A stretch of 64,000 nucleotides of DNA. It comes from Neocallimastix sp. 'constans' (Eukaryota). Of this stretch, positions 1 through 26,943 are shown piece by piece. The notes below the pieces were generated by a model. It worked only from the letters and a program-made list of their open reading frames with translations. It ran no database searches and had not been told where the DNA came from. The DNA lies in the NCBI GenBank assembly GCA_050613775.1, contig JBODTK010000001.1, positions 682,001 to 746,000 of the forward strand. Direction: 5' to 3'. The position numbers were made by a program, and so were the translations under genes. How positions within the stretch are numbered: position 1 is the stretch's first letter; each line of letters opens with the position of its first letter.

Positions 1-943
1 TAATAAACACTTTAATAAAATAATAAAATTTAAGGTTAAATTATAGATATTGATATTAATAATAATAAAAATATAGAATTATTGATAATATTTTAGAAAC
101 TTTTAATAAAAATATAAAAAAAAATATATTTAGAAAATATTTTAGTATAGAAAATATAGTAAAGTAATATTAAGTAAAGAATAATATAATGGATTCTAAA
201 GTATGTTAAAATTAAGATATAAAATAGTTTTATGATTAATAACGTTACTAGGTTAATATGTTGAATTATATATTAATAATCTAACAATAATTAATTAATA
301 ATAATATAAAAATAATATAAGATAAATAGTTAAGTTATTTAAACACTTAATATCTAAGAATATTTTAAATAATAATTTCTTTGAAGGATTTATGAAAATA
401 TTTATTTATTGAATTATTAGTATATAATTATTATAAATACAATAACCTTACAAAGAACATAAAAGATAGATTTTTACATCTTTCTTTTATACTTTGTAAG
501 TTACATAATAATAGTATTTAATTATAAGATAATAATAATATAGTAAAATGAATATTAATAAAATATTAAAATAATAACAATATCGATATGTTTAAAATAT
601 TTAATATAATTAAATAAATTTAATTTGTATAATTAATTTGAATAATTAAAAATAGTAATTAATATATATGATATAAACATATATATAAACATAATATAAA
701 TAAATACATGTGACGTCATATGTAAATAATTGAAATTATTAATATAAATCTTATTTATTAATATTTTCAGAATTATTAGGCCAAAGATAATTCTTTAAAT
801 ATTAAATAAGAATTTATATTAATTATTAATTAAATGTATATTGAAATGTGAATAACTGAAATTGAGATTTCAATTCAGTTATAATTTCAACAAAGTAAGT
901 TGAAATTCTAATTAATAATCCATTATATGTTCGTTCTTTACCA
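1..943 (-). mobile_element. LTR of the element-2 family (5' LTR of an element outside the window, or a solo LTR), interrupted by a nested solo LTR
   Basis: 1-203 plus 898-943 match the distal part of LTRs 9834-10675 and 18020-18862 (…GGATTCTAAAGTA|AGTTGAAATTC…GTTCGTTCTTTACCA); truncated by the window start. Confidence 0.9.
204..892. mobile_element. Nested solo LTR (689 bp) with 5-bp TSD AAGTA
   Basis: Termini TGTTAAAATT…AATTTCAACA; AAGTA at 199-203 and 893-897; removing it restores the element-2-type LTR sequence. Confidence 0.88.
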
Positions 944-948
944 AAAAC

Positions 949-1542
949 TGATACAATATAAGTAATAAAGTATCAAATTTCTATTTGTAACGAGGTCGAG
1001 CAAATAGGGAATTTGTAAAATAATATATTCCAACTCAAAGATAATAAATAATAATTTACACAAATAATAAAATTTATTTATTTCTTTTTAAATCTTGTTT
1101 TTATTTATTTATTTATTTTACATAAATTATTACAATTATATTTATATTCCTCTGAATATAATGATTTTTATCTATCTCTAATAATTCAATTTATATTAAT
1201 ATCTTAATAATAATTTTACTTATAATTGTAGGATTCAACTCTTATCCTTTAACTATAAGTAATTACTTAATTATTTAAACTAAACTATAAGTTCTCTAAA
1301 ACTATTATTTTACTCAATTAGAATTTCTAAAACAACAAGAAAACTCTCTCTTTAACTTTTATTTCATTCTCTTCTTTTAAATTTATTAATTAATTTTATC
1401 TTGAATATTATTGGCTGTCTAATTAATTTTAATCTATTTATATAATGATTTAGTATATTATATTGTAATTATTTTTCACTATATTATTATAGGATTTTCT
1501 CTTTTGTTAATTTTCTTGCGTATTTCTAGCTGTATTGTATCA
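949..1542 (-). repeat. Element 1 3' LTR
   Basis: Direct repeat of 8191-8796 with several substitutions and indels; TG…CA termini. Confidence 0.93.
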
Positions 1543-1838
1543 AAACGCCCCCACTTAGTCTTGACTTCGTCCCTTGAAGTCTATTACTTGGGTATTTAGA
1601 TACAATTTATATAATATTTTTTTTTTTTATTAAATTTATAATGATTTATAAGATATATAATAAAATTTTTTTTTTTTTTTTTCTTTTTAATTAAATTTTT
1701 TTTTATAATAAATTTATAATGATTTACAAAATATAAATTTTTTTTTTTTTTTCTTTTTTTTTTTTTATTTTTTTTTTATTTTTTTATTAATTAATTAATA
1801 ATGATTTATAAAATATATATATATATACGTTATATATT

Positions 1839-4800
1839 TTATTCTTCATCATCTTCTATATTTATTTCCGTGAAGTATGGAATAATGTTCTTCAAATGGA
1901 TGTTTCTATCAGCAACTTCTCCTGTAATTGGGTCACAAACGGATACAGTGTTTAATTCTTGTTTTATAATCTTCAAAGGACCTGTAAAGAATGGGTCGAG
2001 TTTTCTTCTGTTAAACACTTTCACTAGTACCAAGTCACCAGGTTTATAATTGCTCTTTAAACGTCTAATTTGTTTTCTTCTGTCCATCCAAAGTTTATTC
2101 GCGGTCTCAATGTTTCTAATAGCTTCCCGGATCCATCTATCATGGGTAATGAACTTCCTTAATATATATTCTTCGTTTTCGAATTCGTTTCTCCGGTCTA
2201 TATTCAAAGATAATTCAAAAGGCTGAAGATCTCTACGGCCATACAATAATTCGAAACTACTGTGTTTCGTAACTTCGCTTTTGCTCGTTCTTAGTGCCCA
2301 TAACGCGCTATATAGTGTTTCATCCCATTGTTTATCGTTCTCACCCAGTAGTCTAAGGTATTTACAGATCTCACGGTTGCGGTTTTCCACCTCACCGTTT
2401 GAGGCAGGATAATATGTTGCAATGTATTGCACATATACATCATGCAAATCCAAAAATGCCTTTGTCTTATCCGATACGAATTGTGGACCATTATCCGTAA
2501 CCAAAACTTCAGGAATTCCATGACGCGATAACACCGACTTTAAAAACCTAATAACGTCTTCGGATTCAGTAGATTTAAGTGGCTCAGCTTCAGTCCACTT
2601 TGTAAAATAGTCTACAAGTACAATTATATATTTATTTCCGTTTTTGGTGAGAGGAAGGGGCCCAACCAGATCTAATCCAACTCTGGAGAATGGATATCCT
2701 GGTGGTATCGCAATATTTTCAGTGTAGTGGTTAAGTGGTTGTCGTCGACAAGTTTGACACTTGTGACAATATTTAATGAAGTTAGTTATATCTTGTTTCA
2801 TGTTCATCCAGTAATAGTCTCTCATTAAACGATAATAAGTCTTATAAATTCCTTCATGTCCTATGTTATGTGCTGCATTAATAAGTTTTATTTGTTCAGT
2901 TTTATCTTTAATAATCCTTCTGAGCTTACCATCTTGTTTATAATACTCAATACCATTTATATTAATAATTTCCTTTTTAATAAATTCTCTCATATATGTA
3001 ATAATAGTATCAGAGTCCGAATCCGCAACAACATTAGAAGGTAAATTATTATTAGTAGTAATTATATTAATAGTTTCTACAGGTTGATCCGAAACAGGTT
3101 TGTAAGAAGAAATATTATTCATAATTAAATCATTATTATTAATATTATTATTATCATCATTATTAACTGTTACCATTCTTGATAGTGCATCAGCAACAAA
3201 ATTATTTTTGCCTTCTTCATATGCTACTTGAACATTTAAAATACTGAGTTCAGTAATCCATTTCAAGTGACGGCTGTTGGTTGGTTCTCTCTTAGCAAAT
3301 ATATATACAAGTGGTTTATGATCAGTATAAACCATTGTATTAAACGGGCTTCCAGAAATATATGGTTTAAACTTTTGAACACAGTGATAAACTGCTTTTC
3401 CTTCAAGGTCTGTTATGCTATAGTTAAGTTCTGAGTTGGATAAGGTACGACTTTCAAAGTAAATTGGGACTTCTATACCATCTTGGTTCTTTTGTAACAA
3501 TACACCTCCTAGACCATCACGAGAAGCGTCAGTTCTAATAATAAACGGTTTTGAATAATTAGGAGCTGTTAAAATAGGTGCTTCAATTAGCTTATTCTTT
3601 AATAAATGAAATGAATTAGTACAATCTTCAGTCCAACAAAAAGGTGCCTCTTTCTTCAATAGTTGATATAAAGGCTTTGCGATCATGGCAAAATTTTTAA
3701 TAAATTTTCTATAATACGAAACAGCTCCTAAAAACGACCTTACCTGTTTCAAATTCTTCGGAGGTAGCCATTGTGATATAACCTTTACCTTGTCATTTAA
3801 AGGAGATAATCCTTTTGTCGAAAGCAAATGCCCTAAGATTTTGACTTCAGTTTGAAAGAAAGAACATTTTTCTAAATTTATTTTTAATTCATTTTCTTGT
3901 AAAATTGTAAATACCTTATGTAAGTGACAAATATGTTCATCTAAAGACTTTGAAAGTATAATTAGATCATCAATATACGCGAACATGCAGTCTCCTATTA
4001 AATCAAAGAAGATACGATTCATCTCTCTTTGAAAAGTGGCGGGGGCATTGCAAAGTCCAAAGGGCATTAAACGGAAGTTGTAGTTGCCAAACATAGTTGT
4101 AAAAGCGGTTTTATCCTTATCGGCTGTATCCATGGGAATCTGGTGATATCCAGAGTACAAATCAATAGTGGATAGAATTTTTATGTTATCACCAGCTAAT
4201 GATAGAATATCGTCAATAAGAGGTAAAGAATACGAATCTTTTATAGTTAAATCATTTAATTTCCGATAATCTACACATAACCTCCAATCTTTATTCTTTT
4301 TTGGGACTAAAACAATAGGTGAAGACCATTGGGAAGAGGATGGTTCGATAAGCCAGTCTCTAATTAGTTTCTTCAATATTTTCTTTAAAGCTATGGTTTG
4401 ATTTTTGGTTAATCGATAGGCTCTTTGTTTTATGGGTCTTGACCCAGGTAATAAATTTATTTTATGTGGGAATAACTTTGATTTTCCCAATTCGTCGGTT
4501 TTTAAAGCTAATATATTAATAAATTTTTGAAACATTTCTTTAACTTCTTTTTGAACATTAGATGGTAATGAATTAACAATTTTATCAATTATTTCATTTT
4601 TATTTGGTTTAGGATCTTCTTGTTTATTAAAGTCTGTGTTATTTACCACTAAGGTGCACAATAAGGGCTGAGGATCTAAATCTTCTGTATTAACATTATC
4701 ATCTTGATTCATGGGACGAGTGTCATATTGTAGATCTGATAGTTTATGGTAATTATTATTGTTATCAACATAGTACAGAGTATCATTAACAAAATCTAAA

Positions 4801-6713
4801 ATAAATCTATTCTTTTTTAAAGAATCAACTCCAATTAATATGTCAAATAAATTATCCTTTTCTATTATTCTGAAATAATTTTTGAATGATTTGTTCCCAA
4901 TTGTTATTTCTAATTCTATAATTTCGGATTGTACGGATGTTTCGGAACAGGCTTGTACTATGGTTTCATTGATAGTTTCTAAGGTAGGTTTGTTAATTTT
5001 TAATTTTTGTAAAGCTGAGCGAGTAATTATATTAAGACTCGCACAAGTGTCCAAAAATATTTCAGTATCGGCACCTTCTACTTTTCCTTTTGTTTTACTA
5101 ATTTTAAATTTACTAAATATTGATAATAGAGTGCTTGTAGAATTTCTAGGATTTAATTTTAAAGCTTTCGAAAAGGCTGCCCTGAACTTCGGAAATAAAT
5201 CAAGTAAGTGTACTAATTTAGTATTAATTTCAGTAGAAGCTATTTCTTTAACTAAATCTTCTATCAGATATTCGTCAAATTCTTCTACTAATTTTATGTG
5301 CCTTTCTTTATTTTCTTCTTTATTATTCATTTTATTATCACCTTGTGTGGGACTATCTAAAATTTCTTGTGCTCTTTTTAATTTATTAGATTTCTTCACA
5401 CTCCTGATATTCTTTTCGGTAATAAAGGAAGGATCTAGGTAGTTTAATTTTTCTGTCTCATTAATAGGTAAGTCATCATTATTCTCAATTTGGTTATTAC
5501 CTTCTTGACTTTCATTGTTATCATTCTCATTATATATTGAAGTATTATTACTCTCATTAGTATTTTTATTAAAATCTTGATTGCTTTTTTCAGACATTAA
5601 GACATCTTCTTCGCCCTTGTCTGATATAGTATTACTTTTTAATTTATTTAATTTATTGTTATGTTTATTAGTATTAGTTAATTGTTTATTTTTATTATTT
5701 GAACTCACTAAATGATTATTATGATTCATTGCTGTTGTTTGTATAGGAATTGGGTTGTTCTTTAATATTTCTCTTCTAGATGGTGTAAGTGTAAAGATAT
5801 TATTAATATCTTTATAAATTTTAATTAAATTTAATCATAAATTTAAGTAAAATTGAAATAAATCTATTAAAAATCACGTGTATAAAATTATTGCAAATAA
5901 TTTTAAACAAAACTTCGACTTCTTCCCAATCATATTAATAAATTAAAAATTTCTCTTGTGAAACTAGTAATTGAAAATCATTTCTTTTTATGTAATTTAA
6001 TTTAAATAATAAGAGTTAAGGTTTTTTACAAGATAAATTAACAACATGAAACTATGCAATTAGTCATGTTGAAACTTGCGGCATTTTATGCTAAAATCAT
6101 ATTAAATAATTATGACAACTTTTATATTAATTTTAAATAGAAAATATAATAAGAATTTATTAATAATATTTAAATAATAAATAAATAATAAATGAGCTCG
6201 ATTGAAATTGTTTATATTTATTTTAGTTATTAATTATAATTCTCTTTATTTAGTAATAGTTAATTATTTATTATTAGTTTAGGTTAGTATTGTTTTTAAA
6301 TAAATAGTTAGATAATATAATTCAATAGGAATTATATATTCTAAATGTAATAAGATAAAAATATAAATAGTTAACCAAATTTCATGTATTTTAATCGATG
6401 TAATTGTTATTAACGATTTATTGTTAATAACACTAATAATTAATAAAGATTATTTTAAAATCTAAATATAATAAAACTTATTTGTTTATAAAACATTTTT
6501 GTGTTATTTAGTGTTATTATAATTTTTGACTTATAATCTATTTTTTTTAAATCAAAACTTTATAGTAAGATTCTTACTTTTTGTTTTGGTATTCTTGATG
6601 GCGGTAGCAATGACTTCAGGTGAGTTGTTAATTATTGGAAGTGTCTTTGGGTTATTTTCTACTTGGTTGGTTTGTTTACTGGGAGTCATCCTTCTCCCAA
6701 TTATTGGTTTAAA
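1839..6713 (-). CDS. pol: Element 1 Pol (protease, RT, RNase H, integrase with GPF/Y motif), in the -1 frame from gag, interrupted by a nested solo LTR at 5790-6564
   Basis: FLDTCAS protease, WRLCVDYRKLN and YIDD RT, TDAS RNase H, H..GH…C..C zinc finger and DDE integrase, LDPFFTGP. Excising 5790-6564 plus one TSD copy gives an open frame from the slip site (6707-6713) into ORF 1839-5729. Confidence 0.92.
5790..6564. mobile_element. Nested solo LTR (775 bp) in the element 1 pol N-terminus, 5-bp TSD GTAAG
   Basis: Termini TGTAAAG…CTTTATA; GTAAG at 5785-5789 and 6565-6569; removal restores …KNLTPSRREILK…. Confidence 0.85.
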
Positions 6714-7846
6714 TGGCTAGTACTACTTGATACTTTTTCTTCCATTTCTGCAAGTTGTTTAAAGGAATAGGGGCAATCCGTAAATTTGTGTCCCGGTTGT
6801 GAGCAACGGAAACAGATAAGTCGTTTATTTAAATTATTACCAAAATTGGAAGTATTAACCTCCTTAATTTGATTATTATTTTTGTTATCACCATTTAAGT
6901 TAGTGATCGACATGAGATTATTTCCAGGGGTAAAGGCCGCAATATTTCGTTTGTTATTACCGTTAGATTGATTATTATTTTTCATATAGTTTCTATAGTT
7001 ATTAAAATTTTGACTGTTATATTTTGAATTAGTATTATTATTAATTCCATTTACATTATTATAAGTATTTCCATTGAGGTTTTTATTATTATAATAATTA
7101 TTATAGTTATTATAATATTGACTATTATTATTATTATCTTTATATCCATAAGTGTTATAATTATTATAATTAGGATTAAAATATCTCTGGATGCCACGAC
7201 GACGGGATTGTCCTACTAAAAATCCTTGATAGAATGGGTGATTCATAATCGATAAACCTCTGTTATTCTGAGCTATCATCAAATTATTACTATGATAATT
7301 ATTTTCATTGAATGAAACTGTATTCATCTCTCTCTCTGTTTCTTCTGCAACCTCAGCTACCTTGTAAGCTTCGCTTAATGTTTCACATTCAGCCTCCAAT
7401 ACTCTTGAGCAAGGATACATTCGAGTTTTTATTGCATTTATGTAGTCTTTTACGGAGACAAATTGTTGACGGTCTCTGCTTAGCCTGTGATATAATCTTT
7501 TATGTCTATAATTAAATTTTTTTACTGTTTCATTGTTACTAATTTTTAAATCCTTTAGAATAGAACATTTATCATTTTCAGTGACGTTTAAGTATTCTTC
7601 GATGCACGATTGAATTTGCTTGAGGGAAGGATATTTCACTTCATTTCCCTTTTTCACTTTAAGAGAATTCAAATCTCCATGTACATCTTCATCTGTGGCT
7701 TCTAATACCCAAATGAAGATCTTTCTTGGTTCGACGATGTCATATAATTCTAGGGTTTTAGCTAAGTCGCTAATCCAAGTATCAACGTCTTTGTCATAAT
7801 CGTTCAAGCGAGGTAGAACCCTTTGTAACTTTTCGGCATCAATCAT
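6701..7846 (-). CDS. gag: Element 1 Gag (capsid-like region, Asn-rich insert, CCHC zinc knuckle)
   Basis: 381-aa ORF with CFRCSQPGHKFTDC; homologous to element 3 Gag (LPRLN…, CPYSFxxLAEMEEK). Confidence 0.92.
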   Translation of the reverse strand: MIDAEKLQRVLPRLNDYDKDVDTWISDLAKTLELYDIVEPRKIFIWVLEATDEDVHGDLNSLKVKKGNEVKYPSLKQIQSCIEEYLNVTENDKCSILKDLKISNNETVKKFNYRHKRLYHRLSRDRQQFVSVKDYINAIKTRMYPCSRVLEAECETLSEAYKVAEVAEETEREMNTVSFNENNYHSNNLMIAQNNRGLSIMNHPFYQGFLVGQSRRRGIQRYFNPNYNNYNTYGYKDNNNNSQYYNNYNNYYNNKNLNGNTYNNVNGINNNTNSKYNSQNFNNYRNYMKNNNQSNGNNKRNIAAFTPGNNLMSITNLNGDNKNNNQIKEVNTSNFGNNLNKRLICFRCSQPGHKFTDCPYSFKQLAEMEEKVSSSTSHLNQ

Positions 7847-8166
7847 TTTTTTTTTTTTTTTTATAATTAATGTTAATGTAAATTGTTAAATGTAGAATTA
7901 AGAATAGGTAGAATATTTGTAATTAAATTTTTATATTATTGATATATTATATAATATGATTAATAAAGTATTTTATTTGTAAAAAAAAAAAATTTTAAAA
8001 AAAGAAAATAAAGAAAAATAAAATAAGATAAAATAAAATAAAAAAAAAATCTAAATTTTTTTGAAAGGTTTGTTTTATTAAAAAGAAATTAAATCAATAT
8101 TATTCAAACTATTATTTAATTATTATTATTTTCTTTTCATTGTTTTCATATTATTTTATTTTGCTC

Positions 8167-8183
8167 GCCCGGATTCTCCACCA
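8167..8183 (-). promoter_or_regulatory. Primer-binding site of element 1 (tRNA-Ala-like)
   Basis: Minus strand TGGTGGAGAATCCGGGC, complementary to a …CTCCACCA tRNA 3' end; 7 nt from the LTR. Confidence 0.75.
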
Positions 8184-8190
8184 AAATTTA

Positions 8191-8796
8191 TGATACAATA
8201 TAAGTAATAAAGTATCAAATTTTTATTTATTTAATTATAACGAGGTCGAGCAAATAGGGAATTTATAAAATAATATATTCCAACTCAAAGATAATAAATA
8301 ATAATTTACACAAATAATAAAATTTATTTATTTCCTTTTAAATCTTGTTTTTATTTATTTATTTATTTTACATAAATTATTACAATTATATTTATATTCC
8401 TCTGAATATAATGATTTTTATCTATCTCTAATAATTCAATTTATATTAATATCTTAATAATAATTTTACTTATAATTGTAGGATTCAACTCTTATCCTTT
8501 AACTATAAGTAATTACTTAATTATTTAAACTAAACTATAAGTTCTCTAAAACTATTATTTTACTCAATTAGAATTTTTAAAACAACAAGAAAAACTCTCT
8601 CTTTAACTTTTATTTCATTCTCTTCTTTTAAATTTATTAATTAATTTTATCTTGAATATTATTGGCTGTCTAATTAATTTTTAATCTATTTATATAATGA
8701 TTTAGTATATTATATATTGTAATTATTTTTCACTATATTATTATAGGATTTTCTCTTTTGTTAATTTTCTTGCGTATTTCTAGCTGTATTGTATCA
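8191..8796 (-). repeat. Element 1 5' LTR
   Basis: Adjacent to the PBS; repeat of 949-1542. Confidence 0.93.
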
Positions 8797-8800
8797 AAAA

Positions 8801-9330
8801 TGTTGAGGTTCATATTGTAAAAGGAGTGTGAACATTAAATAAATAGATAAATTAACTAATTACTAAATTACACTAAAAGAAATTATTACTACACATTATA
8901 AATTTTATTTAAAGAAGTATTATTAAAAAAATATTTATTATTTATAAATTATATAATTATTTTATTGTTAAAAATAACTTTATTAATATTAATATTTATT
9001 ATTATAACAATATGGGAAACCTTTCAGTTATTATTCCTATTTCATTATCACTACTATTTCTACTATTTCTTTTCTCAGAAAGGCCCCCCTTCATAAAATA
9101 ATATGGATAATACATATTTTATATTATTTAATTACATTATTAAAATCAATCATATAAATTAATTAATTACATAAATTTAATATTTAAAATAATAAAATAT
9201 AACTAATATAAAAATTATTAATATAGAATATAAGAAAATTATTAATAGTAAAGAATATAATAATATATTTTTATATAATAAATTATTAAAAATTTAATTA
9301 AAAATATTATTATTATTCTATTCTTTATCA
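8801..9330 (-). mobile_element. Solo LTR a (530 bp)
   Basis: TGTTGAGG…TTCTTTATCA, flanked by AAAA on both sides (8797-8800, 9331-9334); right end resembles the element-2 LTR end TTCTTTACCA. Confidence 0.78.
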
Positions 9331-9334
9331 AAAA

Positions 9335-9829
9335 TGATACGATATTTTTATTAAACATCAATATCAATATTTATTTTATTTTATTTGGACGATAACAGTA
9401 GGGAATAATTGACAAAATAATATATTCTAATATTATATAGAATAATACACACAATAATAATATTCACACTTTAATATTTAGTTTATATATTTTATTTATT
9501 TATTATCATTCATCAATAAAAATACATCATCAATATAAATAGTTGTTAATTAGTTAAAATATAATTAAATCATTCAATAAAATATAATTAATTACTAAAA
9601 TCTATCATATTATTAATGTAAACTAAATATAAAACTACACTAAACTATACTAATAAACATGTTTATAGGTTAAATTATTAATAAACTAAATTAATATTAA
9701 TAAAAGAACCATTCCTTAAACTATTATTATTTACTAACTATATATATTATTACTAAATTATTATTAACCAATAAGATTTCACTAACCTAATTTTCACTAA
9801 ATTATGGTATTTATGGTGGTACCGTATCA
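9335..9829 (-). mobile_element. Solo LTR b (495 bp)
   Basis: TGATACG…TACCGTATCA, flanked by AAAA; shares the AGGGAAT…AAAATAATATATTC motif with the element 1 LTR and its right end with the element 3 LTR. Confidence 0.8.
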
Positions 9830-10698
9830 AAAATGTTATGGTTCGGGTTTTATTAGAATTTTTATTTAATTATTTATTTTTAATATTTTCCTCTCTACAT
9901 TTTAATTATTGAAAAACTTCACTTATTTATACTTTTTGAAAAAAAAATAAATATGTAAAGCCTTTCTACATTTTATTATCATATTTAAAAAAAAATATTT
10001 ACTATTACTAATTACTTAAAATTTTATATTAATTTAAATTAACTAATTCATAAGTATTTTTATTTTAATAAATTTTGTTTACATAATTTTATATTATTTT
10101 TCATATACTAAAACTAAATTATTTAATATATACGAAAAGTAACAAACAAAATTTAAAAAGATTTTACAGAAAAATAAAGTTATTTTAATCAAGAATGTTA
10201 ATATAATATTCTTATATTTTATATAAAATAAATTTAAAAACTATAAATATATTTAATATTTATTATTAATCAATTAAGATTTGATTTTATTTGTGGGGAA
10301 TAAAAATATTAAATAATCAATTTAAAAATAAAATAAAATACTAAAAAGAATACAAGTTTAATATTGATACAATATAATAATAATATAATAATATATTTGA
10401 AAATAAAAATAAAATATTAATATTGATAATAAACACTTTAATAAAATAATAAAATTTAAGGTTAAATTATAGATATTGATATTAATAATAAAAATATAAA
10501 ATTATTGATAATATTTTAGAAACTTTTAATAAAAATATAAAAAAAAAATATATATTTAGAAAATATTTTAGTATAGAAAATATAGTAAAGTAATATTAAG
10601 TAAAGAATAATATAATGGATTCTAAAGTAAGTTGAAATTCTAATTAATAATCCATTATATGTTCGTTCTTTACCAAGATGTCCCCACTAAGACTCAAG

Positions 10699-17024: not shown

Positions 17025-17086
<62 letters not shown>

Positions 17087-17994
17087 AAGTTTGTTCTACA
17101 CTAAAGAAAAATTTAATTTATTATTTATTAAAAAAAAATTTTTTTTATTAATGAAATATTTATTATTTTAATAAAAGGAAAAAATATATATATATTTTTA
17201 TTTTATTGCAAAAAAAAAAATAATAATAATAATAATAGGCGAACAAATTTATAAAAGCCTAAAATAAAAATAAAAAAAAAAAACTATATATTTTAACGTC
17301 ACTTCGCAAGAATGACCAGGGTTTTATCAGGGATCGAACCTGACCCACCTCTTATTTTCTGAGCGAGTGAACAAACTATCACCTGTTGAAGTGTGTAGTT
17401 GCCTTCAGCGTGAAGGTTTTATAGTTCTAGGGCGTATTTGCCTAATTGTCAAGGATTTGTTCCTTGAAATAATCGCGTTTACAATCTACAAAACCTTGCA
17501 AAATTGTAAATAAGAGTTTATGAAATTAATATCCTGCAAGCTAACACTGTCTTACTCGAATATTAACTTCGTAAATTTGTTAACTTTTTATTATCTTTTT
17601 TTATTATTATTTATTTTTATCTATAATCTACAATTAAATAAAGTTACTACAAAAACTAAAGTTTTCCAAAGTTTTTTTTTTTTTTTTTTTTTTTTATTTT
17701 TTTTTTTTTATGATAACTTTTATTATTATTAATATTAATATTAAATTATTAATTATTATTATTTAACAAAACTTATGGATAATCTGATAGTATACCCTGT
17801 CTGACGTGCAGCTTGCCTCTTCACGGCGTCATGCCACGCGGGTACCACGGCTACTGTATTCAATATAAAATACAGCAGTCCAGAGCCTACTAGCCCAATT
17901 ACTATGTAGGTTAAACTTAGCCCGGAAATCTATATCCAAGGCTTTGTTAAATAATTTAATTAATAAATAATATTAAATTTTATTTTTCTAATAT

Positions 17995-18012
17995 TCCCCG
18001 ATATCTCCACCA
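17995..18012 (-). promoter_or_regulatory. Primer-binding site of element 2 (tRNA-Ala-like)
   Basis: Minus strand TGGTGGAGATATCGGGGA; 7 nt from the LTR. Confidence 0.75.
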
Positions 18013-18866
18013 TAAATTATGTTATGGTTCGGGTTTTATTAGAATTTTTATTTAATTATTTATTTTTAATATTTTCCTCTCTACATTTTAATTATTGAAA
18101 AACTTCACTTATTTATACTTTTTGAAAAAAAATAAATATGTAAAGCCTTTCTACATTTTATTATCATATTTAAAAAAAAAATATTTACTATTACTAATTA
18201 CTTAAAATTTTATATTAATTTAAATTAACTAATTCATAAGTATTTTTATTTTAATAAATTTTGTTTACATAATTTTATATTATTTTTCATATACTAAAAC
18301 TAAATTATTTAATATATACGAAAAGTAACAAACAAAATTTAAAAAGATTTTACAGAAAAATAAAGTTATTTTAATCAAGAATGTTAATATAATATTCTTA
18401 TATTTTATATAAAATAAATTTAAAAACTATAAATATATTTAATATTTATTATTAATCAATTAAGATTTGATTTTATTTGTGGGGAATAAAAATATTAAAT
18501 AATCAATTTAAAAATAAAATAAAATACTAAAAAGAATACAAGTTTAATATTGATACAATATAATAATAATATAATAATATATTTGAAAATAAAAATAAAA
18601 TATTAATATTGATAATAAACACTTTAATAAAATAATAAAATTTAAGGTTAAATTATAGATATTGATATTAATAATAATAAAAATATAGAATTATTGATAA
18701 TATTTTAGAAACTTTTAATAAAAATATAAAAAAAAAATATATTTAGAAAATATTTTAGTATAGAAAATATAGTAAAGTAATATTAAGTAAAGAATAATAT
18801 AATGGATTCTAAAGTAAGTTGAAATTCTAATTAATAATCCATTATATGTTCGTTCTTTACCAAAAA

Positions 18867-19889
18867 TGGTAGACTCGGGGTTGACACTTAGATATTTAAA
18901 ATCAAGCAGGGGGGGACGGGTATTACCCTGCTTTGATTTTAAATAAAAAAAAAATAATTCTTTATTAAAAGTTATTTATTTTTTTTTTTTTTATTAATAT
19001 AAAATTTTATTATTTAAAGTACACATATTTAATTTTTAAGAAATTGTTACAATATTTATATTTTTTTATAAATTTAAAGTATAATTAATTGTTTATAATT
19101 TAAGTAATTTTATAGAATTATTGAATTAATTTTATATCAATAATTCATTTTTGTTTTAATTTTTATAAATATAATAATATAATATTCAAATATAATTTAA
19201 TTAAAAATAATTATAAAATAAATATATAGAAAATAGTTTTTACTATTTTCTTTGATATTTTTAAGTTATATAAATTGTTTTTAAAGATTAATATAATAAA
19301 TTTAATAATCTTTAATTATTTTAAATAATACTTGTAATTATTTTCAAAATAAAATAAAATTTTTATAATATTTAATTAATAAATTTGATAATATTTAAAT
19401 AATAATTTTTATAATAAGTAAAAATTTTTAATAATAATTTTTAATAATAAATTTAATTAATAATCTTAATAATTTTATAATAATATTTAATAGTTATAAT
19501 ATATAAATTTTTATAATAATATTTAATAATTTTAATAATTTTATAATATTAATAATTTATAATAATTTTTAGAATAATATTTAATTAATAATTTTAATAA
19601 TTTTATAATAATTTTTATAATAATATTTAATTAATAGTTTTAATAATTTAGTATCTTAAAAGTATAATTTTAATATTTACAATTGTATTTTAATATATAC
19701 ATATATTTAATAATATAACAATAAAGTAATTAATTAAAATTTATTTACATTATTTACAAGTTAAAATTAATTTATATCAAAATAAATTAAATTTTATTAT
19801 TAAGTTTAGGTTATCAAGAATATAGGAAAGTACAATTTAGTAAAGAATTATTAATAATAAAATAAAGGTTATTAATTTATTCTTTACCA
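18867..19889 (-). mobile_element. Solo LTR c (1023 bp)
   Basis: TGGTAGAC…TTCTTTACCA, flanked by AAAA (18863-18866, 19890-19893). Confidence 0.8.
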
Positions 19890-19893
19890 AAAA

Positions 19894-20740
19894 TGGTACA
19901 AGATCTGAAGATTTTATTAATAAAATAATATATTCTAATAATAAGGAAAAATTTAAAATATTATTCTCTAATTCTAAACCTAAATTAATTAATAAACTAC
20001 TCTAATTTTAGTCTAAACTATCCTAATCTAAAAGAATCTAAACTAAGTTAAAATAACTTAAACTAATATCTTAATCTAAACTATTCTAATCTAAACTAAA
20101 CAATTTCTCTAAATCTATTACTATTTCTATAAAATGTTTAATACAACTAATCTATTACTAAACTAATTTTATACTATACTGATCTTAATATTATACACTA
20201 AACACAAAAATCTATTAATTAAACACTTTTAAAACATTAAATTTAGAAAAAACTATTTAATAAATTTTAATTTATTTTAAACTATTTAATTTATTATTTA
20301 ACTTTTAGAAAATATTAAAAAAATAATATAATAATAAAGTCGTAAGAAAAAAAGGGAGAGAACAAAAGTATTGTGTTACTTTGTTCTTTTTTATACTAAT
20401 AAAATATTTATTTGATTGGATTAAAAATAAAAATAAAAAAAATTAATAATAAAAATTTAATAATAAAAATTTAATAATAAAAATATAATAATAAAAATAT
20501 AATAAACTTAAATTTTCTAAATTATTAAAATATTATATAAAAATTTTACAATATTAAATAATATAATTAATACATGATTTTTTAATACATCTAATTATTT
20601 TTATTTAACTTTATAATATTCTATAACTAATATTTTAATATTCAATTTTTTATTATTTATTTATAATTGTTAATGATATTTTTTACTTTAATATTTTCTT
20701 TAAATAGTTTAATTTTTCTTTATTTAATTGTACCGTAACA
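19894..20740 (-). mobile_element. Solo LTR d (847 bp)
   Basis: TGGTACAAG…TACCGTAACA, flanked by AAAA; termini resemble the element 3 LTR (TGGTACAGG…TACCGTATCA). Confidence 0.82.
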
Positions 20741-21384
20741 AAAATGGTACAGGACTTTTGAAATTGATGGATGTATAATAATATATTGGTAAATAGATAG
20801 TAGACGTATAAAAATTACGAAAAACTTATACAATATTTATTTATTTATTTATTGATTATTTATTAATTTATTTATTTAAAAATTTATTTAACTATATATT
20901 ATTCATCCATTTATTTATTTGTTCATTTATTTATTTATTCCTCCATTACATAAAAAAAAGAAAAGAGAGAGATTTAAAATAATATTATTACAAAATATTT
21001 TATAAATTTTGGTAATACATTGATTAGTTAAAAATAATTTTGTGTAACAATAAAATAATAATAAAATTTTAGATATGAATATTAATAATAAAAATAATAA
21101 AAAAATTTATAATATAAAATAAAATTTATCAAATGTATAATAAAAATATAATAAGAATATAATAAAATATTTATTTTATAGCAAAATATTAATAATTAAT
21201 AATATATATATTTATATAATAATAAAGGAAATATTGATAAAGTTAATAAAGATAATAATTAATTAATAAAATAGATTTAAAACATATTTATATGGAGAAA
21301 TATTAAAATTATTATAATTTAAGGTATTTGGGTAAATACCGTATCATGATGCCCCCGTTAAGTTTAGACTTCGTCCCTTGAAGT

Positions 21385-24300
21385 CTATACTTCACATAGT
21401 CTGTATGGTACAATGTTCTTTAAGTGAACATTTCTCTCAGCGATTTCATTAGTTACAGGATCGCAAAGTGTGACCGTGTTAAATTTCTTCTTAACTATTT
21501 TCATAGGGCCAAGGAAGAATGGGTCTAATTTTCTTCGGTTAATAAGTTTGACAAGGACAAGATCACCAGGGTTATATTCAGCCTTCATTCTCTTCATTTG
21601 TTTTCGCCTGTCTTCCCATAACTTGTTAGCAGTATTAATGTTGTTAATGGCTTCTTTAATCCAGGCATAATGTTTAGTAAATCTACTTATTAAAAATTCT
21701 TCTTCACTTTCGTATTCTTCTTTCTTGTCTAAGTTCAGTGTTAATTCAAAGGGTTGTAAATCGCGACGTCCATATAACAACTCGAAACTGGAAAACTTAG
21801 TAGTTTCATTCTTACAGGTGCGAATAGCCCATAAAGCGCTTGGTAGCATCTCATCCCAAATGGTAGTGTTGCGATTACAAAGAATTCTCAAGTACTTGCC
21901 AATTTCTTTATTTCTATTTTCGACTTCGCCGTTGGATTCTGGATGGTATGTTGTAATATAGTGTACATAAACTCCATATAAGTCGAGAAAAGCTTTCGTT
22001 TTGTCCGAACAGAATTGGGGTCCATTGTCCGTTATTAAAATCTCAGGCGTTCCATGTCGAGCAAAGACTTTGGATAGAAATTGGATAACGTCATCTGATT
22101 CAATGTTCTTAGTGGGTTCAGCTTCAACCCACTTAGTCAGGTAATCTACTAAAACTATAATGTATTGATTACCTTTCTGAGTAACTGGTAGAGGTCCTAC
22201 AATGTCTAGACCTACCTTGGTAAATGGAAGACCGGGTTTCGTGGCTGTATCTTCAGGTTGATAGTTAAATGTTTGTGGCTTAAAGAGTTGACAAGTTTTA
22301 CAGGTCCTGACCATGTATTTAACATCTTGTATCATGTTGGTCCAATAGTAATCTCTTTTCAAGCGGTTGTATGTCTTGAAAGTACCTTCGTGACCGATAC
22401 CATGGGCCTTAAGAATAAGTTTGACTTTTTCCTCTGGGTTATCTATAACTTTTCTTAGCATTCCATTGTCTTTATAAAATTTTTCTCCATTTATTAAAGT
22501 AAACTTGTCTTTTAATAGATTTAATAAGTTGTTTTCATCTGTTTCACTATTTACACTCACGGTTGTAGTTGCTAATATATCGCTTTTGATGGATGGCATC
22601 CTCGAGAGAGCGTCTGCGATAACATTCTTTTTACCAGGTTCATATTGAACACGAACCTTCAACATTGATAAGAGTAATACCCAGCGCGTTTGCCTTGCGT
22701 TGTTGGGTTCTTTGGAGGTGAATAAACTAACTAGTGGTTTGTGGTCTGTATAGAGGATAGTGGAACAGTTATTGCTAGAGATGTAAGGTTTGAATTTCTT
22801 TACGCTATAGAATGCAGCTGTTCCTTCTAAGTCGGTGATAGAGTAATTCTTTTCGGAAGGTTTTAATGAACGGCTAATGAAATGGATGGGTTTTTCCTTA
22901 CCATCTTCCTCTTTTTGTAATAGAACGCCACCGATACCATCATAAGAGGCGTCTGTACGGATGATGAAAGGCTTTTCGAAGTCAGGCATAATTAATATAG
23001 GTGCCTTCACAAGTCTATCTTTAAGTTCTTGGAAGCTATTTTCTTGTTCTGTATTCCATTCGAAATCAGTACCCTTTTTCAGCAGTTTATATAGTGGTCT
23101 AGCCATCTTCGCAAAGTTGAATATAAATTTTCTGTAGTAGCCTACAGCACCTAAAAAGGACCGTAGTTGAGTTATATTCTTGGGAGGCAACCAGTTGTGA
23201 ATAATTTCAGTTTTTCCTGGGATTGGAGCAACTCCTTCAACTGATAAAATATGTCCAAGAAGTTCTACTTTTTTCTTGAAAAAGTGACATTTTTCTAAGT
23301 TTATCTTCAATCCGTTGTTCTTGATTATTGTAAAGACTTTTCTTAAATCTTGGATGTGTTCTTCAATTGATGGTGAGAATATCACCAAGTCATCTATATA
23401 AACGAACATGCATACTCCAATTAGCGGGAAGAAAATTCTGTTCATTTCCCTCTGAAAAGTACCAGGAGCATTGCATAGTCCGAACGGCATCACCCGGAAT
23501 TGGTAGTTCCCAAACATAGTGGTAAAAGTGGTCTTGGGAATGTCTTCTTTATTCATTGGAATTTGGTGAAAGCCGGAGAATAAATCTATAGTAGTAAAGA
23601 CCATAACCTTCCTTCCAATAGAAAATAAAATACTATCGATAATTGGTAACGCGTAGGAATCTTTGATGGTAACATTGTTCAGCTTACGGTAGTCCACGCA
23701 CATCCTCCACTTTTTATTTTTCTTGAGGACGAGTACTACTGGAGACGACCAAGGGGAGCTGGATGGCTCTATCAACTTGTTTTTTATAAGTTTTGTTATT
23801 TCTTGCTTTAGAGCTTGAATTTGAACTTTGGACAACCGGTATCCTTTCTGCTTGATCGGCTTTGCATTTTCTATTAATTGAATGGTATGTGGAAGCAGTT
23901 TCGTTGGCTGGAGTTCATCAATTTTGATTGCTAAGATGATGATGAATTCATGAAATAGTGAGTTAACTTTTCTTCTGTATTTTCTTGGTAATTCATCCAA
24001 TACTTTGTTCAACAACTCTTGTTTCTTTAAGGGTCCGTCTTTAACTTCTTCAATTTGATCTGTTTCATCATGGTAGTTCTCATCTTTAACCTTATTTACA
24101 AGACAGAAGGCATAAGAGCTTGATGCATCTTTATTGTTGGTAAGATTGTGATTCTCATTATCGTCACTCTCCTTCGATTCTTCCTCATCAGTCCCTAAAG
24201 GAGACACACGATCCCATGATTCTTCACTGAGCATCTTGCATAAGTGATTGTCGATAGGATGTACGAATAATTTATTGTCTTTTAATGTATTGAACCCTAT

Positions 24301-25236
24301 AAGTATATCGAAGATATTTTTATCATTTTCAACAACTCTAAATACATCTTTAATTGTGGTATCCCCAATTTTGACATTCAATAGATAGAGTTCTGAATCC
24401 AATTTCTTCTCAGAGAAAATTTGTACAATATTATTATTTGTGTACCCCATTGGTACCAAGTTTTGTTTTTCTTTTATCCTTGTTAAGTAATTCTTTGTCA
24501 CCAAGTTTAAGCTAGCACAGGTATCCAAGAAAGCTATACCTTCAATCCCATAAACATAACATTTTATACTGGCGATATCACTTCTTGAAATAGTGGATAG
24601 AACTATTTCGTTTAGAGATTGTCCTTGAGTATTGCTGTCCTTTAGCTTAAGTAGTTTAACTAGTTCCGATCTAAGCTTAGGACTTATATCTAATAGCTGT
24701 GTGATGGAGATATTAGCTAGTTTGTTGTTTAAGTCATCAGAGATATCATAACTGTTCTTTCCTTCCATCAAGGCTATATGTTTTTCGGTAGATGTCCTTT
24801 TAGATTTGACTTCTTCAGCTTTATCACTAGGAAGTTTTCCTTTTGTTACTTCTTTAGATTGATCATCTCTTGATGGATGAGTACTTGTTTCAGTTTCTTC
24901 TATTATTTCTTTTTCTTTATCTAATTTGGTTTTTCTTTTCACGGACTTGATGGATGGCTGAGCTATCACAGAAAGGTCAATTTCTTCAAGCTTTTCTGTA
25001 GTAGTAGGTGTAGACACTGGTGATTCAAACTCCATAGTAGTATCCTGAGTATTTGTTGCAGCTTTTCCTTTCCTAGATTTTTCTTTTGAAGAGTATGGGG
25101 TTTCTGCCATACTATTATTCTTTTTCTTTCTTCTTACTACCGCTGCTAATATGTCATTATTTGGAACTAGTGGTAAATGGTTCTTTTCGTTGGTTTGATT
25201 AAAGGAAGTTTCCCTTCTTCCTTTTACCAGTTTAAA
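21385..25236 (-). CDS. pol: Element 3 Pol (PR-RT-RH-IN), expressed by -1 frameshift from gag
   Basis: ORF 21385-25110 is open upstream to the TTTAAAC slip site at 25230-25236; FLDTCAS, YIDD, TDAS, HHCC/DDE and LDPFFLGP motifs; no chromodomain. Confidence 0.95.
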   Translation of the reverse strand, partial: FKLVKGRRETSFNQTNEKNHLPLVPNNDILAAVVRRKKKNNSMAETPYSSKEKSRKGKAATNTQDTTMEFESPVSTPTTTEKLEEIDLSVIAQPSIKSVKRKTKLDKEKEIIEETETSTHPSRDDQSKEVTKGKLPSDKAEEVKSKRTSTEKHIALMEGKNSYDISDDLNNKLANISITQLLDISPKLRSELVKLLKLKDSNTQGQSLNEIVLSTISRSDIASIKCYVYGIEGIAFLDTCASLNLVTKNYLTRIKEKQNLVPMGYTNNNIVQIFSEKKLDSELYLLNVKIGDTTIKDVFRVVENDKNIFDILIGFNTLKDNKLFVHPIDNHLCKMLSEESWDRVSPLGTDEEESKESDDNENHNLTNNKDASSSYAFCLVNKVKDENYHDETDQIEEVKDGPLKKQELLNKVLDELPRKYRRKVNSLFHEFIIILAIKIDELQPTKLLPHTIQLIENAKPIKQKGYRLSKVQIQALKQEITKLIKNKLIEPSSSPWSSPVVLVLKKNKKWRMCVDYRKLNNVTIKDSYALPIIDSILFSIGRKVMVFTTIDLFSGFHQIPMNKEDIPKTTFTTMFGNYQFRVMPFGLCNAPGTFQREMNRIFFPLIGVCMFVYIDDLVIFSPSIEEHIQDLRKVFTIIKNNGLKINLEKCHFFKKKVELLGHILSVEGVAPIPGKTEIIHNWLPPKNITQLRSFLGAVGYYRKFIFNFAKMARPLYKLLKKGTDFEWNTEQENSFQELKDRLVKAPILIMPDFEKPFIIRTDASYDGIGGVLLQKEEDGKEKPIHFISRSLKPSEKNYSITDLEGTAAFYSVKKFKPYISSNNCSTILYTDHKPLVSLFTSKEPNNARQTRWVLLLSMLKVRVQYEPGKKNVIADALSRMPSIKSDILATTTVSVNSETDENNLLNLLKDKFTLINGEKFYKDNGMLRKVIDNPEEKVKLILKAHGIGHEGTFKTYNRLKRDYYWTNMIQDVKYMVRTCKTCQLFKPQTFNYQPEDTATKPGLPFTKVGLDIVGPLPVTQKGNQYIIVLVDYLTKWVEAEPTKNIESDDVIQFLSKVFARHGTPEILITDNGPQFCSDKTKAFLDLYGVYVHYITTYHPESNGEVENRNKEIGKYLRILCNRNTTIWDEMLPSALWAIRTCKNETTKFSSFELLYGRRDLQPFELTLNLDKKEEYESEEEFLISRFTKHYAWIKEAINNINTANKLWEDRRKQMKRMKAEYNPGDLVLVKLINRRKLDPFFLGPMKIVKKKFNTVTLCDPVTNEIAERNVHLKNIVPYRLCEV

Positions 25237-26096
25237 GACTTATTTTCTTTTTGAAGTTGGCCTTTTTCTTCCATCTCTGCTAATTCCCTGAAAGAGTAAG
25301 GACATTGGTTTAAGTAGTGTCCCACTTGACCACATTTATAGCATTTTCTATTATTTTGTTGATGTGTGTTTGAATTATCTTGGCGTCTTCTAGTCTGTTC
25401 TTGATTTGACTTCAGTTTATTTTCTTTTACATACCTATAATCGCTTCGGTCGTTATCCCTTGTGTTGTATTTTCGGTTACCAAAGCCCTTGAATGGATGA
25501 CCTCCGTAGTTGACTTTATAATAATAAGGTTGGTTGGATTGAAATGTTGCTAAAACAGTTTCAGGCTTACGTAGGAAGTTTTCTTCAGCCCTTTCGGCTA
25601 GTTCGGCTTCTTCGAAGGCATCCTCCAGATCATAACACCTTTGGGTGATTACTTGAGACCTTGCATAAGGTCTACTAGCAATGGATTCAATGTAATCGTC
25701 TACCGTAATGAAAGATTGGTATAGTTTGGAAAGACTATTATAAAGCTTTTTGTACCTCCAGTTAAAGTTTTGAATACTTTCACCCTTTCTGATTCTAAGT
25801 TTCTGGAGTCTCTTGCATTTTTCCTGGGGAGTAACTTCAAGTGCATCTTCTATAGCCTTTTTCATCTGGTCGATGGATGGATACTTCTTTCCCCCTTCTT
25901 CGTCGGTAGTTACTAAGTCTTGTAGTATACCTCTTAGTTTGCCTTCCACACATTCCATAGCCCAGGAATGTATGTTCATAGGTTCAGTGATGTTTGCTAG
26001 TCTCATGATCCTAGCAAATTCATCACCCCAAGAATCCACATCTCTTGCTGTTTCGTTTAGACGAGGTAGAATCTCTTCGAGTTCCCTGATCTTCAT
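25224..26096 (-). CDS. gag: Element 3 Gag
   Basis: 290-aa ORF with CYKCGQVGHYLNQC knuckle. Confidence 0.94.
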   Translation of the reverse strand: MKIRELEEILPRLNETARDVDSWGDEFARIMRLANITEPMNIHSWAMECVEGKLRGILQDLVTTDEEGGKKYPSIDQMKKAIEDALEVTPQEKCKRLQKLRIRKGESIQNFNWRYKKLYNSLSKLYQSFITVDDYIESIASRPYARSQVITQRCYDLEDAFEEAELAERAEENFLRKPETVLATFQSNQPYYYKVNYGGHPFKGFGNRKYNTRDNDRSDYRYVKENKLKSNQEQTRRRQDNSNTHQQNNRKCYKCGQVGHYLNQCPYSFRELAEMEEKGQLQKENKSLNW

Positions 26097-26230
26097 TTCT
26101 TTAGTTTTTTTTTTTTTTTCTGTTTTATTTTATTTGCTTTATTATTATTATTATTATTTCGTTTATAATATTTTATTTAATCTTCTTTCTTTTTTACTAT
26201 CTATTAATGTTTCATATTATTATACTTTCG

Positions 26231-26247
26231 TCCTGCATAGCTCGCCA
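26231..26247 (-). promoter_or_regulatory. Primer-binding site of element 3 (tRNA-Arg-like)
   Basis: Minus strand TGGCGAGCTATGCAGGA; 7 nt from the LTR. Isoacceptor assignment is by resemblance only. Confidence 0.68.
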
Positions 26248-26871
26248 GAAATTATGGTACAGGACTTTTGAAATTGATGGATGTATAATAATATATTGGT
26301 AAATAGATAGTAGACGTATAAAAATTACGAAAAACTTATACAATATTTATTTATTTATTTATTGATTATTTATTAATTTATTTATTTAAAAATTTATTTA
26401 ACTATATATTATTCATCCATTTATTTATTTGTTCATTTATTTATTTATTCCTCCATTACATAAAAAAAAGAAAAGAGAGAGATTTAAAATAATATTATTA
26501 CAAAATATTTTATAAATTTTGGTAATACATTGATTAGTTAAAAATAATTTTGTGTAACAATAAAATAATAATAAAATTTTAGATATGAATATTAATAATA
26601 AAAATAATAAAAAAATTTATAATATAAAATAAAATTTATCAAATGTATAATAAAAATATAATAAGAATATAATAAAATATTTATTTTATAGCAAAATATT
26701 AATAATTAATAATATATATATTTATATAATAATAAAGGAAATATTGATAAAGTTAATAAAGATAATAATTAATTAATAAAATAGATTTAAAACATATTTA
26801 TATGGAGAAATATTAAAATTATTATAATTTAAGGTATTTGGGTAAATACCGTATCAAAAATCTATAAACTT

Positions 26872-26943
26872 TCCGCACTGGTCCAGTGGCTAGGATTCCA
26901 CGCTCTCACCGTGGCGGCCGGGGTTCGATTCCCCGGTGCGGAG
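26872..26943 (+). tRNA. tRNA-Glu (anticodon CTC)
   Basis: Cloverleaf TCCGCAC/GTGCGGA acceptor, CCACG-CT-CTC-AC-CGTGG anticodon arm, CGGGG-TTCGATT-CCCCG T arm; A and B boxes; no intron. Confidence 0.96.

What the first reader, a model, noticed from the sequence alone, without database searches (positions are those of the whole stretch)
1..26943. tRNA-anchored, polarised stack of Ty3/Gypsy elements inserted serially at one site
Seen: eight LTR-bounded units (1-943, 949-8796, 8801-9330, 9335-9829, 9834-18862, 18867-19889, 19894-20740, 20745-26856) from about 7 LTR families abut with no host DNA between them. The spacers are AAAA at 8797, 9331, 9830, 18863, 19890, 20741 and 26857, and AAAAC at 944. 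The last AAAA lies 15-12 nt upstream of tRNA-Glu. All three full elements point away from the tRNA. Known: yeast Ty3 integrates at Pol III start sites via TFIIIB/TFIIIC, and S. japonicus Tj1 and Dictyostelium DGLT-A also target upstream of tRNA genes. Inference: several families share one base-precise target. Each insertion regenerates the 4-bp target beside the tRNA and pushes older elements outward, giving a growing array of at least 27 kb, formally like leader-polarised CRISPR or integron arrays. I do not know of this being described in gut fungi, but cannot search the literature.
Basis: partly seen in the sequence, partly recalled or inferred. Interest (0 to 1): 0.93.

Follow-up and report, generated by a model that had tools for sequence, protein, structure and literature searches.

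The report
Retrotransposon stack at a tRNA gene
In a probable anaerobic gut fungus, eight retrotransposon units from seven families sit end to end over 27,000 bases, separated by the same four letters, just in front of a transfer-RNA gene, likely because each new copy lands on that one spot and pushes the older ones outward.

Summary
Confirmed. Window 1-26856 holds eight TG...CA-bounded units of seven LTR families: three full Ty3/Gypsy elements, four solo-LTR-like units and one cut LTR. Seven of eight junctions are AAAA and one is AAAAC. The last lies at -15..-12 of an intact tRNA-Glu. Best reading (0.8): Pol III-complex-guided integration at one fixed position, with a 4-bp duplication that regenerates the target. 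tRNA-upstream targeting (Ty3, Tj1, DGLT-A) and tandems at tRNA genes (Dictyostelium TREs) are known. Apparently new: the gut-fungal lineage, seven families on one base, divergent orientation, 4-bp duplication, and an integrase without Ty3's chromodomain. Not shown: targeting at other loci, because no genome was held and collection scans gave no flanked copy. No listed contig spans the tRNA junction; one run shows this LTR end followed by a 4-nt spacer and TG. This scan earlier noted a two-element stack at tRNA-Leu in another genome. The CRISPR likeness is formal only.

The parts
1..943 (-). U1: cut LTR of the U5 family (the array runs off the window)
   Evidence: 0 substitutions and 1 indel against the right U5 LTR over 249 nt
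204..892 (.). Nested solo-LTR-like insert in U1, TG...CA, 5-bp duplication AAGTA
944..948 (+). Spacer AAAAC (the one 5-nt junction)
949..8796 (-). U2: full Ty3/Gypsy element; LTRs 949-1542 and 8191-8796 (5 substitutions, 4 indels); gag 6701-7885; pol 1839-6689 interrupted; tRNA-Ala-type PBS 7 nt from the LTR
5790..6564 (.). Nested 775-bp LTR-like insert in U2 pol (TG...TA), 5-bp duplication GTAAG
   Evidence: splits the match to P0037 at residues 40-42; boundaries
8797..8800 (+). Spacer AAAA
8801..9330 (-). U3: solo-LTR-like unit, 530 bp (strand inferred from terminal motif)
9331..9334 (+). Spacer AAAA
9335..9829 (-). U4: solo-LTR-like unit, 495 bp; right end equals the U8 U3 start in 10 of 10 nt (strand inferred, weak)
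9830..9833 (+). Spacer AAAA
9834..18862 (-). U5: full-length but defective Ty3/Gypsy element; LTRs 9834-10675 and 18020-18862 (1 substitution, 4 indels); 3 frameshifts and 1 stop in pol, 1 stop in gag; tRNA-Ala-type PBS
18863..18866 (+). Spacer AAAA
18867..19889 (-). U6: solo-LTR-like unit, 1023 bp; right end equals the U5 U3 start in 10 of 10 nt (strand inferred)
19890..19893 (+). Spacer AAAA
19894..20740 (-). U7: solo-LTR-like unit, 847 bp; both ends match the U8 ends in 9 of 10 nt (strand inferred)
20741..20744 (+). Spacer AAAA
20745..26856 (-). U8: intact Ty3/Gypsy element; identical 602-bp LTRs (20745-21346, 26255-26856); gag 25224-26129; pol 21385-25239 in the -1 frame behind a TTTAAAC site
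26857..26860 (+). Gene-proximal AAAA, the inferred target, at -15..-12 of the tRNA
26872..26943 (+). tRNA-Glu(CTC), followed by a T8 run (26946-26953)

Best explanation
This is a real head-to-tail stack of Ty3/Gypsy retrotransposons and LTRs from seven families, likely built by repeated integration at one position fixed by the RNA polymerase III complex on the neighbouring tRNA-Glu gene. Shown: the unit boundaries, the repeated AAAA, the 15-nt distance, the common orientation of the three full elements, and decay rising away from the tRNA. Inferred: integrase docks on TFIIIB or TFIIIC and cuts with a 4-bp stagger at -15..-12. Repair duplicates AAAA, so the tRNA keeps its internal promoter and the same 15-nt leader, and stays a target. 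The next element, of any family in the clade, enters between the previous one and the tRNA with its 5' LTR facing the gene. Older copies are pushed outward, collapse to solo LTRs by LTR-LTR recombination (which keeps both AAAA), and collect untargeted insertions with 5-bp duplications. The docking surface is untested. It cannot be a Ty3-type C-terminal chromodomain, which these integrases lack. A DGLT-A-like contact through RNase H or the integrase N-terminal extension, or the SH3 domain on a long linker helix, are the candidates.
For: All eight junctions begin with AAAA, p about 1e-10. The spacer is not element-derived: the bases next to the LTRs inside the elements differ (AAAC, AGAT, TGAT on the PPT side; ATTTA, AATTA, AATTA on the PBS side). 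A 5-bp stagger at a fixed position would leave five-base spacers. The distance matches Ty3 and DGLT-A, about 15 bp (PMC6101501, PMC5006619). Age order: LTR substitutions are 0/602 (U8), 1/839 (U5) and 5/594 (U2); U2 vs U8 Fisher p=0.03. U8 is intact, U5 has 5 ORF lesions, and nested inserts were found only in U1 and U2. U2, U5 and U8 are 50-55% identical in pol and fall in three subclades of one clade of 109 of 117 RT-RH rows (support 0.95) that excludes the 8 animal and plant rows and includes Orpinomyces proteins. A relative from another sample (L119, 74% identical) has TGTA, not TTTT, after its 3' LTR, so AAAA is not a clade-wide fixed motif (n=1). In run X9 a U8-type LTR end is followed by a 4-nt spacer and TG, as further stacking would give.
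Against: One locus only. No second tRNA-flanked copy was retrieved. None of the 21 contig pieces listed (420 more not shown) for 4 runs spans the U8-tRNA junction, and in X9 the depth of the bin 26855-26869 is fully accounted for by two records that leave 26862-26869 uncovered. The order of three ages has a 1-in-6 chance by itself, and U5 vs U8 (p=1.0) and U2 vs U5 (p=0.09) are not separable. U5 has more ORF lesions than its single LTR substitution suggests. The extra C at 948 is unexplained. The strand of the four solo units rests on 10-nt terminal motifs that are partly palindromic. Other tRNA-Glu genes seen in X14, X18 and X19 show no LTR-type end at -16.
Confidence: 0.8

Rival explanations
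1. Sequence or structure hot spot independent of Pol III: the integrases prefer CA-AAAA at the U3 end of a resident LTR, so elements pile on each other and the tRNA is a bystander or only the seed.
For: Every junction offers a similar CA-AAAA-TG context. Target-preserving double insertion makes TSD-separated tandems without any tRNA (bioRxiv 10.1101/158386). The X9 junction is LTR end, 4 nt, TG and could be another locus.
Against: It gives no reason for the array to end exactly 15 nt from the only tRNA in 64 kb (p about 2e-4), nor for decay to rise away from the tRNA, since any junction could be used. L119 has a different flank.
Confidence: 0.1
2. The array was assembled by recombination (unequal exchange, or integrase-independent insertion of cDNA into resident LTRs), as in plant LTR tandems.
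For: Tandem LTR structures are common in plants (PMC11899658, passages). U1 and U5 share one LTR family.
Against: Homologous recombination would share LTRs between same-family units. Here seven unrelated LTR families abut with complete TG and CA ends and a constant 4-nt spacer. Joining different loci would mix spacers.
Confidence: 0.04
3. Assembly artefact: repeats concatenated by the assembler.
For: No listed contig piece spans the U8-tRNA junction in 4 runs, and the other junctions were not checked with reads. Several LTR-pair indels lie in homopolymer runs.
Against: Assemblers join by overlap and would not place the same 4 nt between seven unrelated families with exact ends. 13 of 24 runs hold 73-85% of the sampled words of 21400-29000. 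All three pol proteins have 98-99.8% identical counterparts in public assemblies. An LTR end, 4 nt, TG junction occurs in X9.
Confidence: 0.04

Closest known systems
Ty3 of Saccharomyces cerevisiae (Ty3/Gypsy, Metaviridae)
   Same: [quoted passage not shown]
   Different: Ty3 makes a 5-bp duplication (PMC6673722), inserts in both orientations and uses a +1 frameshift (PMC5911963), and contacts Brf1 through a C-terminal chromodomain (bioRxiv 10.1101/2021.07.27.453949). Here: 4 bp, 3 of 3 full elements divergent, pol in the -1 frame behind TTTAAAC plus hairpin, and the integrase ends after the SH3 domain.
DGLT-A of Dictyostelium
   Same: Ty3/Gypsy without chromodomain and with a short integrase extension; 18 of 20 copies 13-18 bp upstream of tRNA genes; many solo LTRs; a table footnote records further tRNA-specific elements at the same gene (PMC5006619, PMC6101501).
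   Different: DGLT-A has a single ORF, a PBS 2 bp from the LTR and either orientation (PMC5006619, PMC5911963). Here: two ORFs, PBS 7 nt off, one orientation, seven families on the same four bases.
Tj1 of Schizosaccharomyces japonicus
   Same: Targets just upstream of Pol III genes with a fixed orientation; the authors knew no other wild-type LTR element with fixed orientation (PMC4600332).
   Different: Tj1 is co-directional with the tRNA gene, self-primed, with a 5-bp duplication and gag stop read-through. These elements are divergent, tRNA-primed, 4 bp.
TRE5 tandems of Dictyostelium discoideum
   Same: New copies land between the tRNA gene and a resident element and form tandems without integrating into it; 91 of 98 occupied genes were hit again (PMC5391098).
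   Different: Non-LTR elements, about 47 +/- 3 bp upstream, not base-precise.
Double-insertion tandems (R1, P element, jockey in Drosophila)
   Same: The target duplication preserves the target, so a site can be reused (bioRxiv 10.1101/158386).
   Different: In the passages read these are same-family dimers set by sequence preference, not multi-family arrays ordered from a gene.

Membership tests
Ty3/Gypsy LTR retrotransposon | pol order PR-RT-RH-IN | tested here: met
   Pfam, (protease matched in U2; RT, RH, IN in all three)
Ty3/Gypsy LTR retrotransposon | TG...CA LTR pair, PBS, PPT, target duplication | tested here: met
   PBS 7 nt and purine tract 5 nt from the LTR in 3 of 3
Ty3/Gypsy LTR retrotransposon | gag with CCHC knuckle upstream of pol | tested here: met
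   zf-CCHC in U8 (E 4e-6) and weakly in U5; U2 gag 38% identical to U8 gag
Pol III-targeting Ty3/Gypsy (works like Ty3, DGLT-A) | [quoted passage not shown] | tested here: met
   LTR end 15 nt from tRNA-Glu; eight events at one position
Pol III-targeting Ty3/Gypsy (works like Ty3, DGLT-A) | most genomic copies next to Pol III genes | tested here: inconclusive
   no genome held; scans gave no flanked copies
Pol III-targeting Ty3/Gypsy (works like Ty3, DGLT-A) | integrase or RNase H binds TFIIIB or TFIIIC | not testable with these tools
Ty3 proper | 5-bp target duplication | tested here: not met
   4 nt at 7 of 8 junctions
Ty3 proper | +1 gag-pol frameshift | tested here: not met
   TTTAAAC plus hairpin at the gag end in 3 of 3; pol in the -1 frame in U8
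Ty3 proper | C-terminal chromodomain after the SH3 domain | tested here: not met
   model ends at residue 371 after strands 314-365; the match to Ty3 stops at polyprotein residue 1418 with 31 residues left; tail after the GP motif is 20-61 aa in 96 of 96 measurable rows; no Chromo hit
DGLT-A | no chromodomain | tested here: met
DGLT-A | single gag-pol ORF | tested here: not met
   two frames in U8
DGLT-A / Ty3 / Tj1 lineage | RT groups with these elements | not tested
   their sequences were not among the fetched proteins; the tree has only animal and plant outgroups
Tj1 | self-priming PBS and co-directional insertion | tested here: not met
   TGG-type tRNA PBS and divergent orientation
CRISPR or integron array | dedicated acquisition machinery and a use of the stored units | tested here: not met
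   units are self-encoded retrotransposons; no such genes among 15 ORFs scanned and no such RNA in Rfam

The most novel reading that the evidence does not exclude
A gut-fungal clade of about a hundred Ty3/Gypsy families targets tRNA genes to the base and in one orientation, by a chromodomain-free docking that evolved apart from Ty3, Tj1 and DGLT-A. Many tRNA genes in these large AT-rich genomes would then carry time-ordered, multi-family archives of past transposition that still grow at the gene-proximal end and differ between strains.
Probability: 0.4. Interest if true: 0.8.

Novelty: new variant of a known kind. Interest (0 to 1): 0.62.

Why it matters
It would extend Pol III-targeted LTR integration to early-diverging fungi with large genomes, where the usual compact-genome argument fits poorly. 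It would add a second fixed-orientation system, opposite to Tj1, with an integrase that lacks the domain Ty3 uses on Brf1. The stack gives a direct chronology of family activity. U8, with identical LTRs and intact ORFs, is a ready candidate for a targeting assay and a possible safe-harbour integrase for fungi that lack genetic tools.

Tried and rejected
No genome is held for the window. Viral collection: nothing in 4 scans. GTDB scan: 14 loci from 73 candidates, 12 of them close relatives (49-77%) binned into prokaryote MAGs; 0 of 14 carry a tRNA, and they are mostly internal parts. In five of those MAGs, 19 tRNA regions were fetched; 0 of 18 with upstream DNA show an LTR-type end at -16 (read by eye), and they are probably the prokaryotes' own genes. 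A junction pattern rang about as often as its reversed control, and an LTR query gave only low-complexity hits. Reads were laid only on 26795-27215, so the inner junctions remain unchecked. Rejected: a 5-bp duplication; spacer derived from element ends; solo units being small two-LTR elements (no second terminus or PBS in 4 of 4, apart from one 12-nt near-match in U3). Foldseek and the Atlas only confirmed an integrase. Six of 123 rows were dropped from the tree for short coverage. A recalled 2024 paper on gut-fungal LTR elements is not held.
Full report
Host and setting. The window is 10-37% GC in 2-kb bins and carries two GH6-CBM1 genes, a ZIP transporter and an M13 peptidase fragment to the right of the array. 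The closest named homologues of the U8 pol are Orpinomyces proteins. I infer an anaerobic gut fungus (Neocallimastigomycota). No whole genome is held.

Observation. Positions 1-26856 consist of eight units with CA right ends and, except the cut U1, TG left ends. Between and after them lie seven AAAA and one AAAAC. The last AAAA is followed by 11 nt and tRNA-Glu(CTC) at 26872-26943, then a T8 run. It is the only tRNA in the window. AAAA is 3.8% of LTR 4-mers, giving about 1e-10 for seven repeats; the junction motif occurs 6 times in the array and 0 times in the other 37 kb. U1 is a U5-family LTR; other LTR pairs share only low-complexity matches, so there are seven families.

Anatomy of the full elements. 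U2, U5 and U8 lie on the minus strand with gag and PR-RT-RH-IN. All three have a TGG-type PBS 7 nt from the LTR. For U2 and U5 it fits tRNA-Ala (G3:U70 rule, established knowledge); for U8 it resembles an Arg tRNA end (recalled, untested). All have a purine tract 5 nt from the 3' LTR, with a hairpin before it that is clear in U8 (z -3.7), weaker in U2 (z -2.1) and not significant in U5. All have TTTAAAC plus a hairpin at the gag end (z -1.3 for U8, -2.6 for U2, -2.4 for U5), and pol lies in the -1 frame in U8. Relatives L119, L120 and L126 show PBS offsets of 9, 5 and 2 nt. The pols are 50-55% identical and fall in three well-supported subclades of a clade of 109 of 117 RT-RH rows (FastTree support 0.95) that excludes the 8 animal and plant rows; 6 of 123 rows were dropped for short coverage. 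Those rows are the best 120 hits of a search with U8, so the clade's limits are not fully sampled. The predicted integrase (pLDDT 81, pTM 0.47) has a helix at 266-304 and a beta domain at 314-365, then ends. The tail after the GP motif is 20-61 aa in 96 of 96 measurable rows, and no chromodomain model matches the three tails.

Is AAAA a target duplication? The bases beside the LTRs inside the elements differ from AAAA on both the PPT and PBS sides, so it is not an untrimmed cDNA end. A 5-bp stagger at a fixed distance would leave five-base spacers. L119 has TGTA after its 3' LTR, so AAAA is not fixed for the clade, although this is one short-read contig. The two nested inserts, 204-892 in U1 and 5790-6564 in U2, have 5-bp duplications and sit inside elements. 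They act as an internal contrast: other repeats in this genome do not use the junction.

Polarity. LTR substitutions are 0/602 (U8), 1/839 (U5) and 5/594 (U2); only U2 vs U8 is significant (p=0.03; 0.09 and 1.0 for the others). U8 is intact. U5 has three frameshifts and a stop in pol against the intact homologue P0155, and a stop in gag. Nested inserts were found only in the two distal units; a scan also gave one chance-looking candidate inside U2's open pol frame and three in U5, none confirmed. U1 shows no substitution against U5 in 249 nt, where 1.2 would be expected if it were as old as U2 (P=0.3), so this is no conflict. The four solo units share their right-hand 10 nt with the U3 starts of U5 or U8 (9, 10, 10 and 9 of 10), consistent with one orientation, but the ends are partly palindromic and the call is weak.

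Outside evidence. 24 runs from 17 studies hold part of 21400-29000, 17 of them half or more of the words; the best may be the source. I laid 4 of the 24 on 26795-27215. No listed piece spans the LTR-tRNA junction (21 shown, 420 not). In X9 one 84-nt record (depth 204) carries the U8-type LTR end, a 4-nt spacer and TG followed by other sequence. It has two mismatches that the tool does not place, so the spacer reads AAAA only if they lie elsewhere. It may be this locus with one more element, or another stack. Nearly all tRNA contigs laid were the TTC isoacceptor, and the leaders shown for them have no LTR end. All collection scans failed to give a tRNA-flanked copy (see Tried and rejected). The inner junctions are unchecked by reads.

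Mechanism. Internal A and B boxes let TFIIIC place TFIIIB upstream whatever sequence lies there (established for yeast). An integrase docked on that complex cuts at a fixed distance; the 4-bp duplication restores AAAA and the 15-nt leader, so the target survives each event. The LTR end also leaves TCA-AAAA at -18..-12, close to the ttCAan motif found at yeast tRNA start sites (PMC6673722); that it serves as the start site is speculation. The docking surface is unknown.

Literature seen. Passages of PMC5006619, PMC5911963, PMC6101501, PMC6673722, PMC5391098, PMC7175516, PMC11899658, bioRxiv 10.1101/2021.07.27.453949 (35) and 10.1101/158386 (36); part 1 of 4 plus passages of PMC4600332. No supplements were read. 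Known tRNA-upstream Ty3/Gypsy elements listed there are Ty3, Ty3p, Tj1, Tca8, Tyl3, Ylt1, Tyl6 and DGLT-A, none from gut fungi. Searches with gut-fungal or chytrid terms gave 0 papers and no such report among the rows listed in the others (20 of 63, 20 of 414, 8 of 8). Searches on stacking gave TRE tandems, double-insertion dimers and plant tandems. Most subscription papers are not held, including a recalled 2024 survey of gut-fungal LTR elements (nothing seen), which could already mention tRNA association.

Earlier scan notes. e1-8067551 reports two small LTR elements on the same four bases 16 nt upstream of tRNA-Leu in another AT-rich fungal genome. It agrees with this reading but is an unchecked note. 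Four notes describe LINE stacks or LINE targeting at fungal tRNA genes.

Verdict. The feature is real, works like Ty3/DGLT-A targeting with TRE-like stacking, and is not a member of Ty3, Tj1 or DGLT-A proper. It is a new variant of a known kind. Confidence in the mechanism 0.8; interest 0.62, limited by the single locus.

Noticed in passing
window 26956-27512 and 37814-38376: A 560-bp repeat (79% identical copies) starts 13 nt after the tRNA end; many variant contigs lay on it in X9 and X14, so it is a dispersed family. No ORF seen; the second copy has no tRNA beside it.
   Followed up: partly
window 8176-8190, 18005-18019, 26240-26254 and 1543-1555, 10676-10688, 21347-21359: The PBS lies 7 nt and the purine tract 5 nt from the LTR in all three elements, more than the 2 bp given for the DGLT-A PBS; integrase may trim longer cDNA ends.
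   Followed up: partly
window 21347-21400 and 1543-1596; L119 5200-5250: A conserved hairpin just upstream of the PPT, with the same core in U2, U8 and L119.
   Followed up: partly
window 18890-18950: A strong inverted repeat (17-bp arms, one bulge) followed by an A run near the left end of solo unit U6.
   Followed up: no
window 5835-6700: The U2 nested insert has a 67% match to the start of fungal-type contig L179.
   Followed up: partly
window 15722-18000: U5 has a 2.3-kb leader with long T runs and short GC-rich patches; no nested element was confirmed.
   Followed up: partly
window 40998-42395 and 45122-46477: Tandem pair of CBM1-GH6 cellulase genes in a duplicated block (86% identical over 2.5 kb).
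   Followed up: no
window 32172-32765 and 54961-55072: A 600-bp self-inverted repeat region and a near-perfect 112-bp palindrome.
   Followed up: no
L117-L128: Twelve contigs of this retrotransposon clade are binned into five prokaryote MAGs in GTDB (two Methanosphaera, two Bacilli, one Erysipelotrichaceae): probable fungal contamination.
   Followed up: partly
L119 5923-6251: The 3' LTR abuts a repeat of about 270 bp that begins with TG; it could be flank or another element with no spacer.
   Followed up: no
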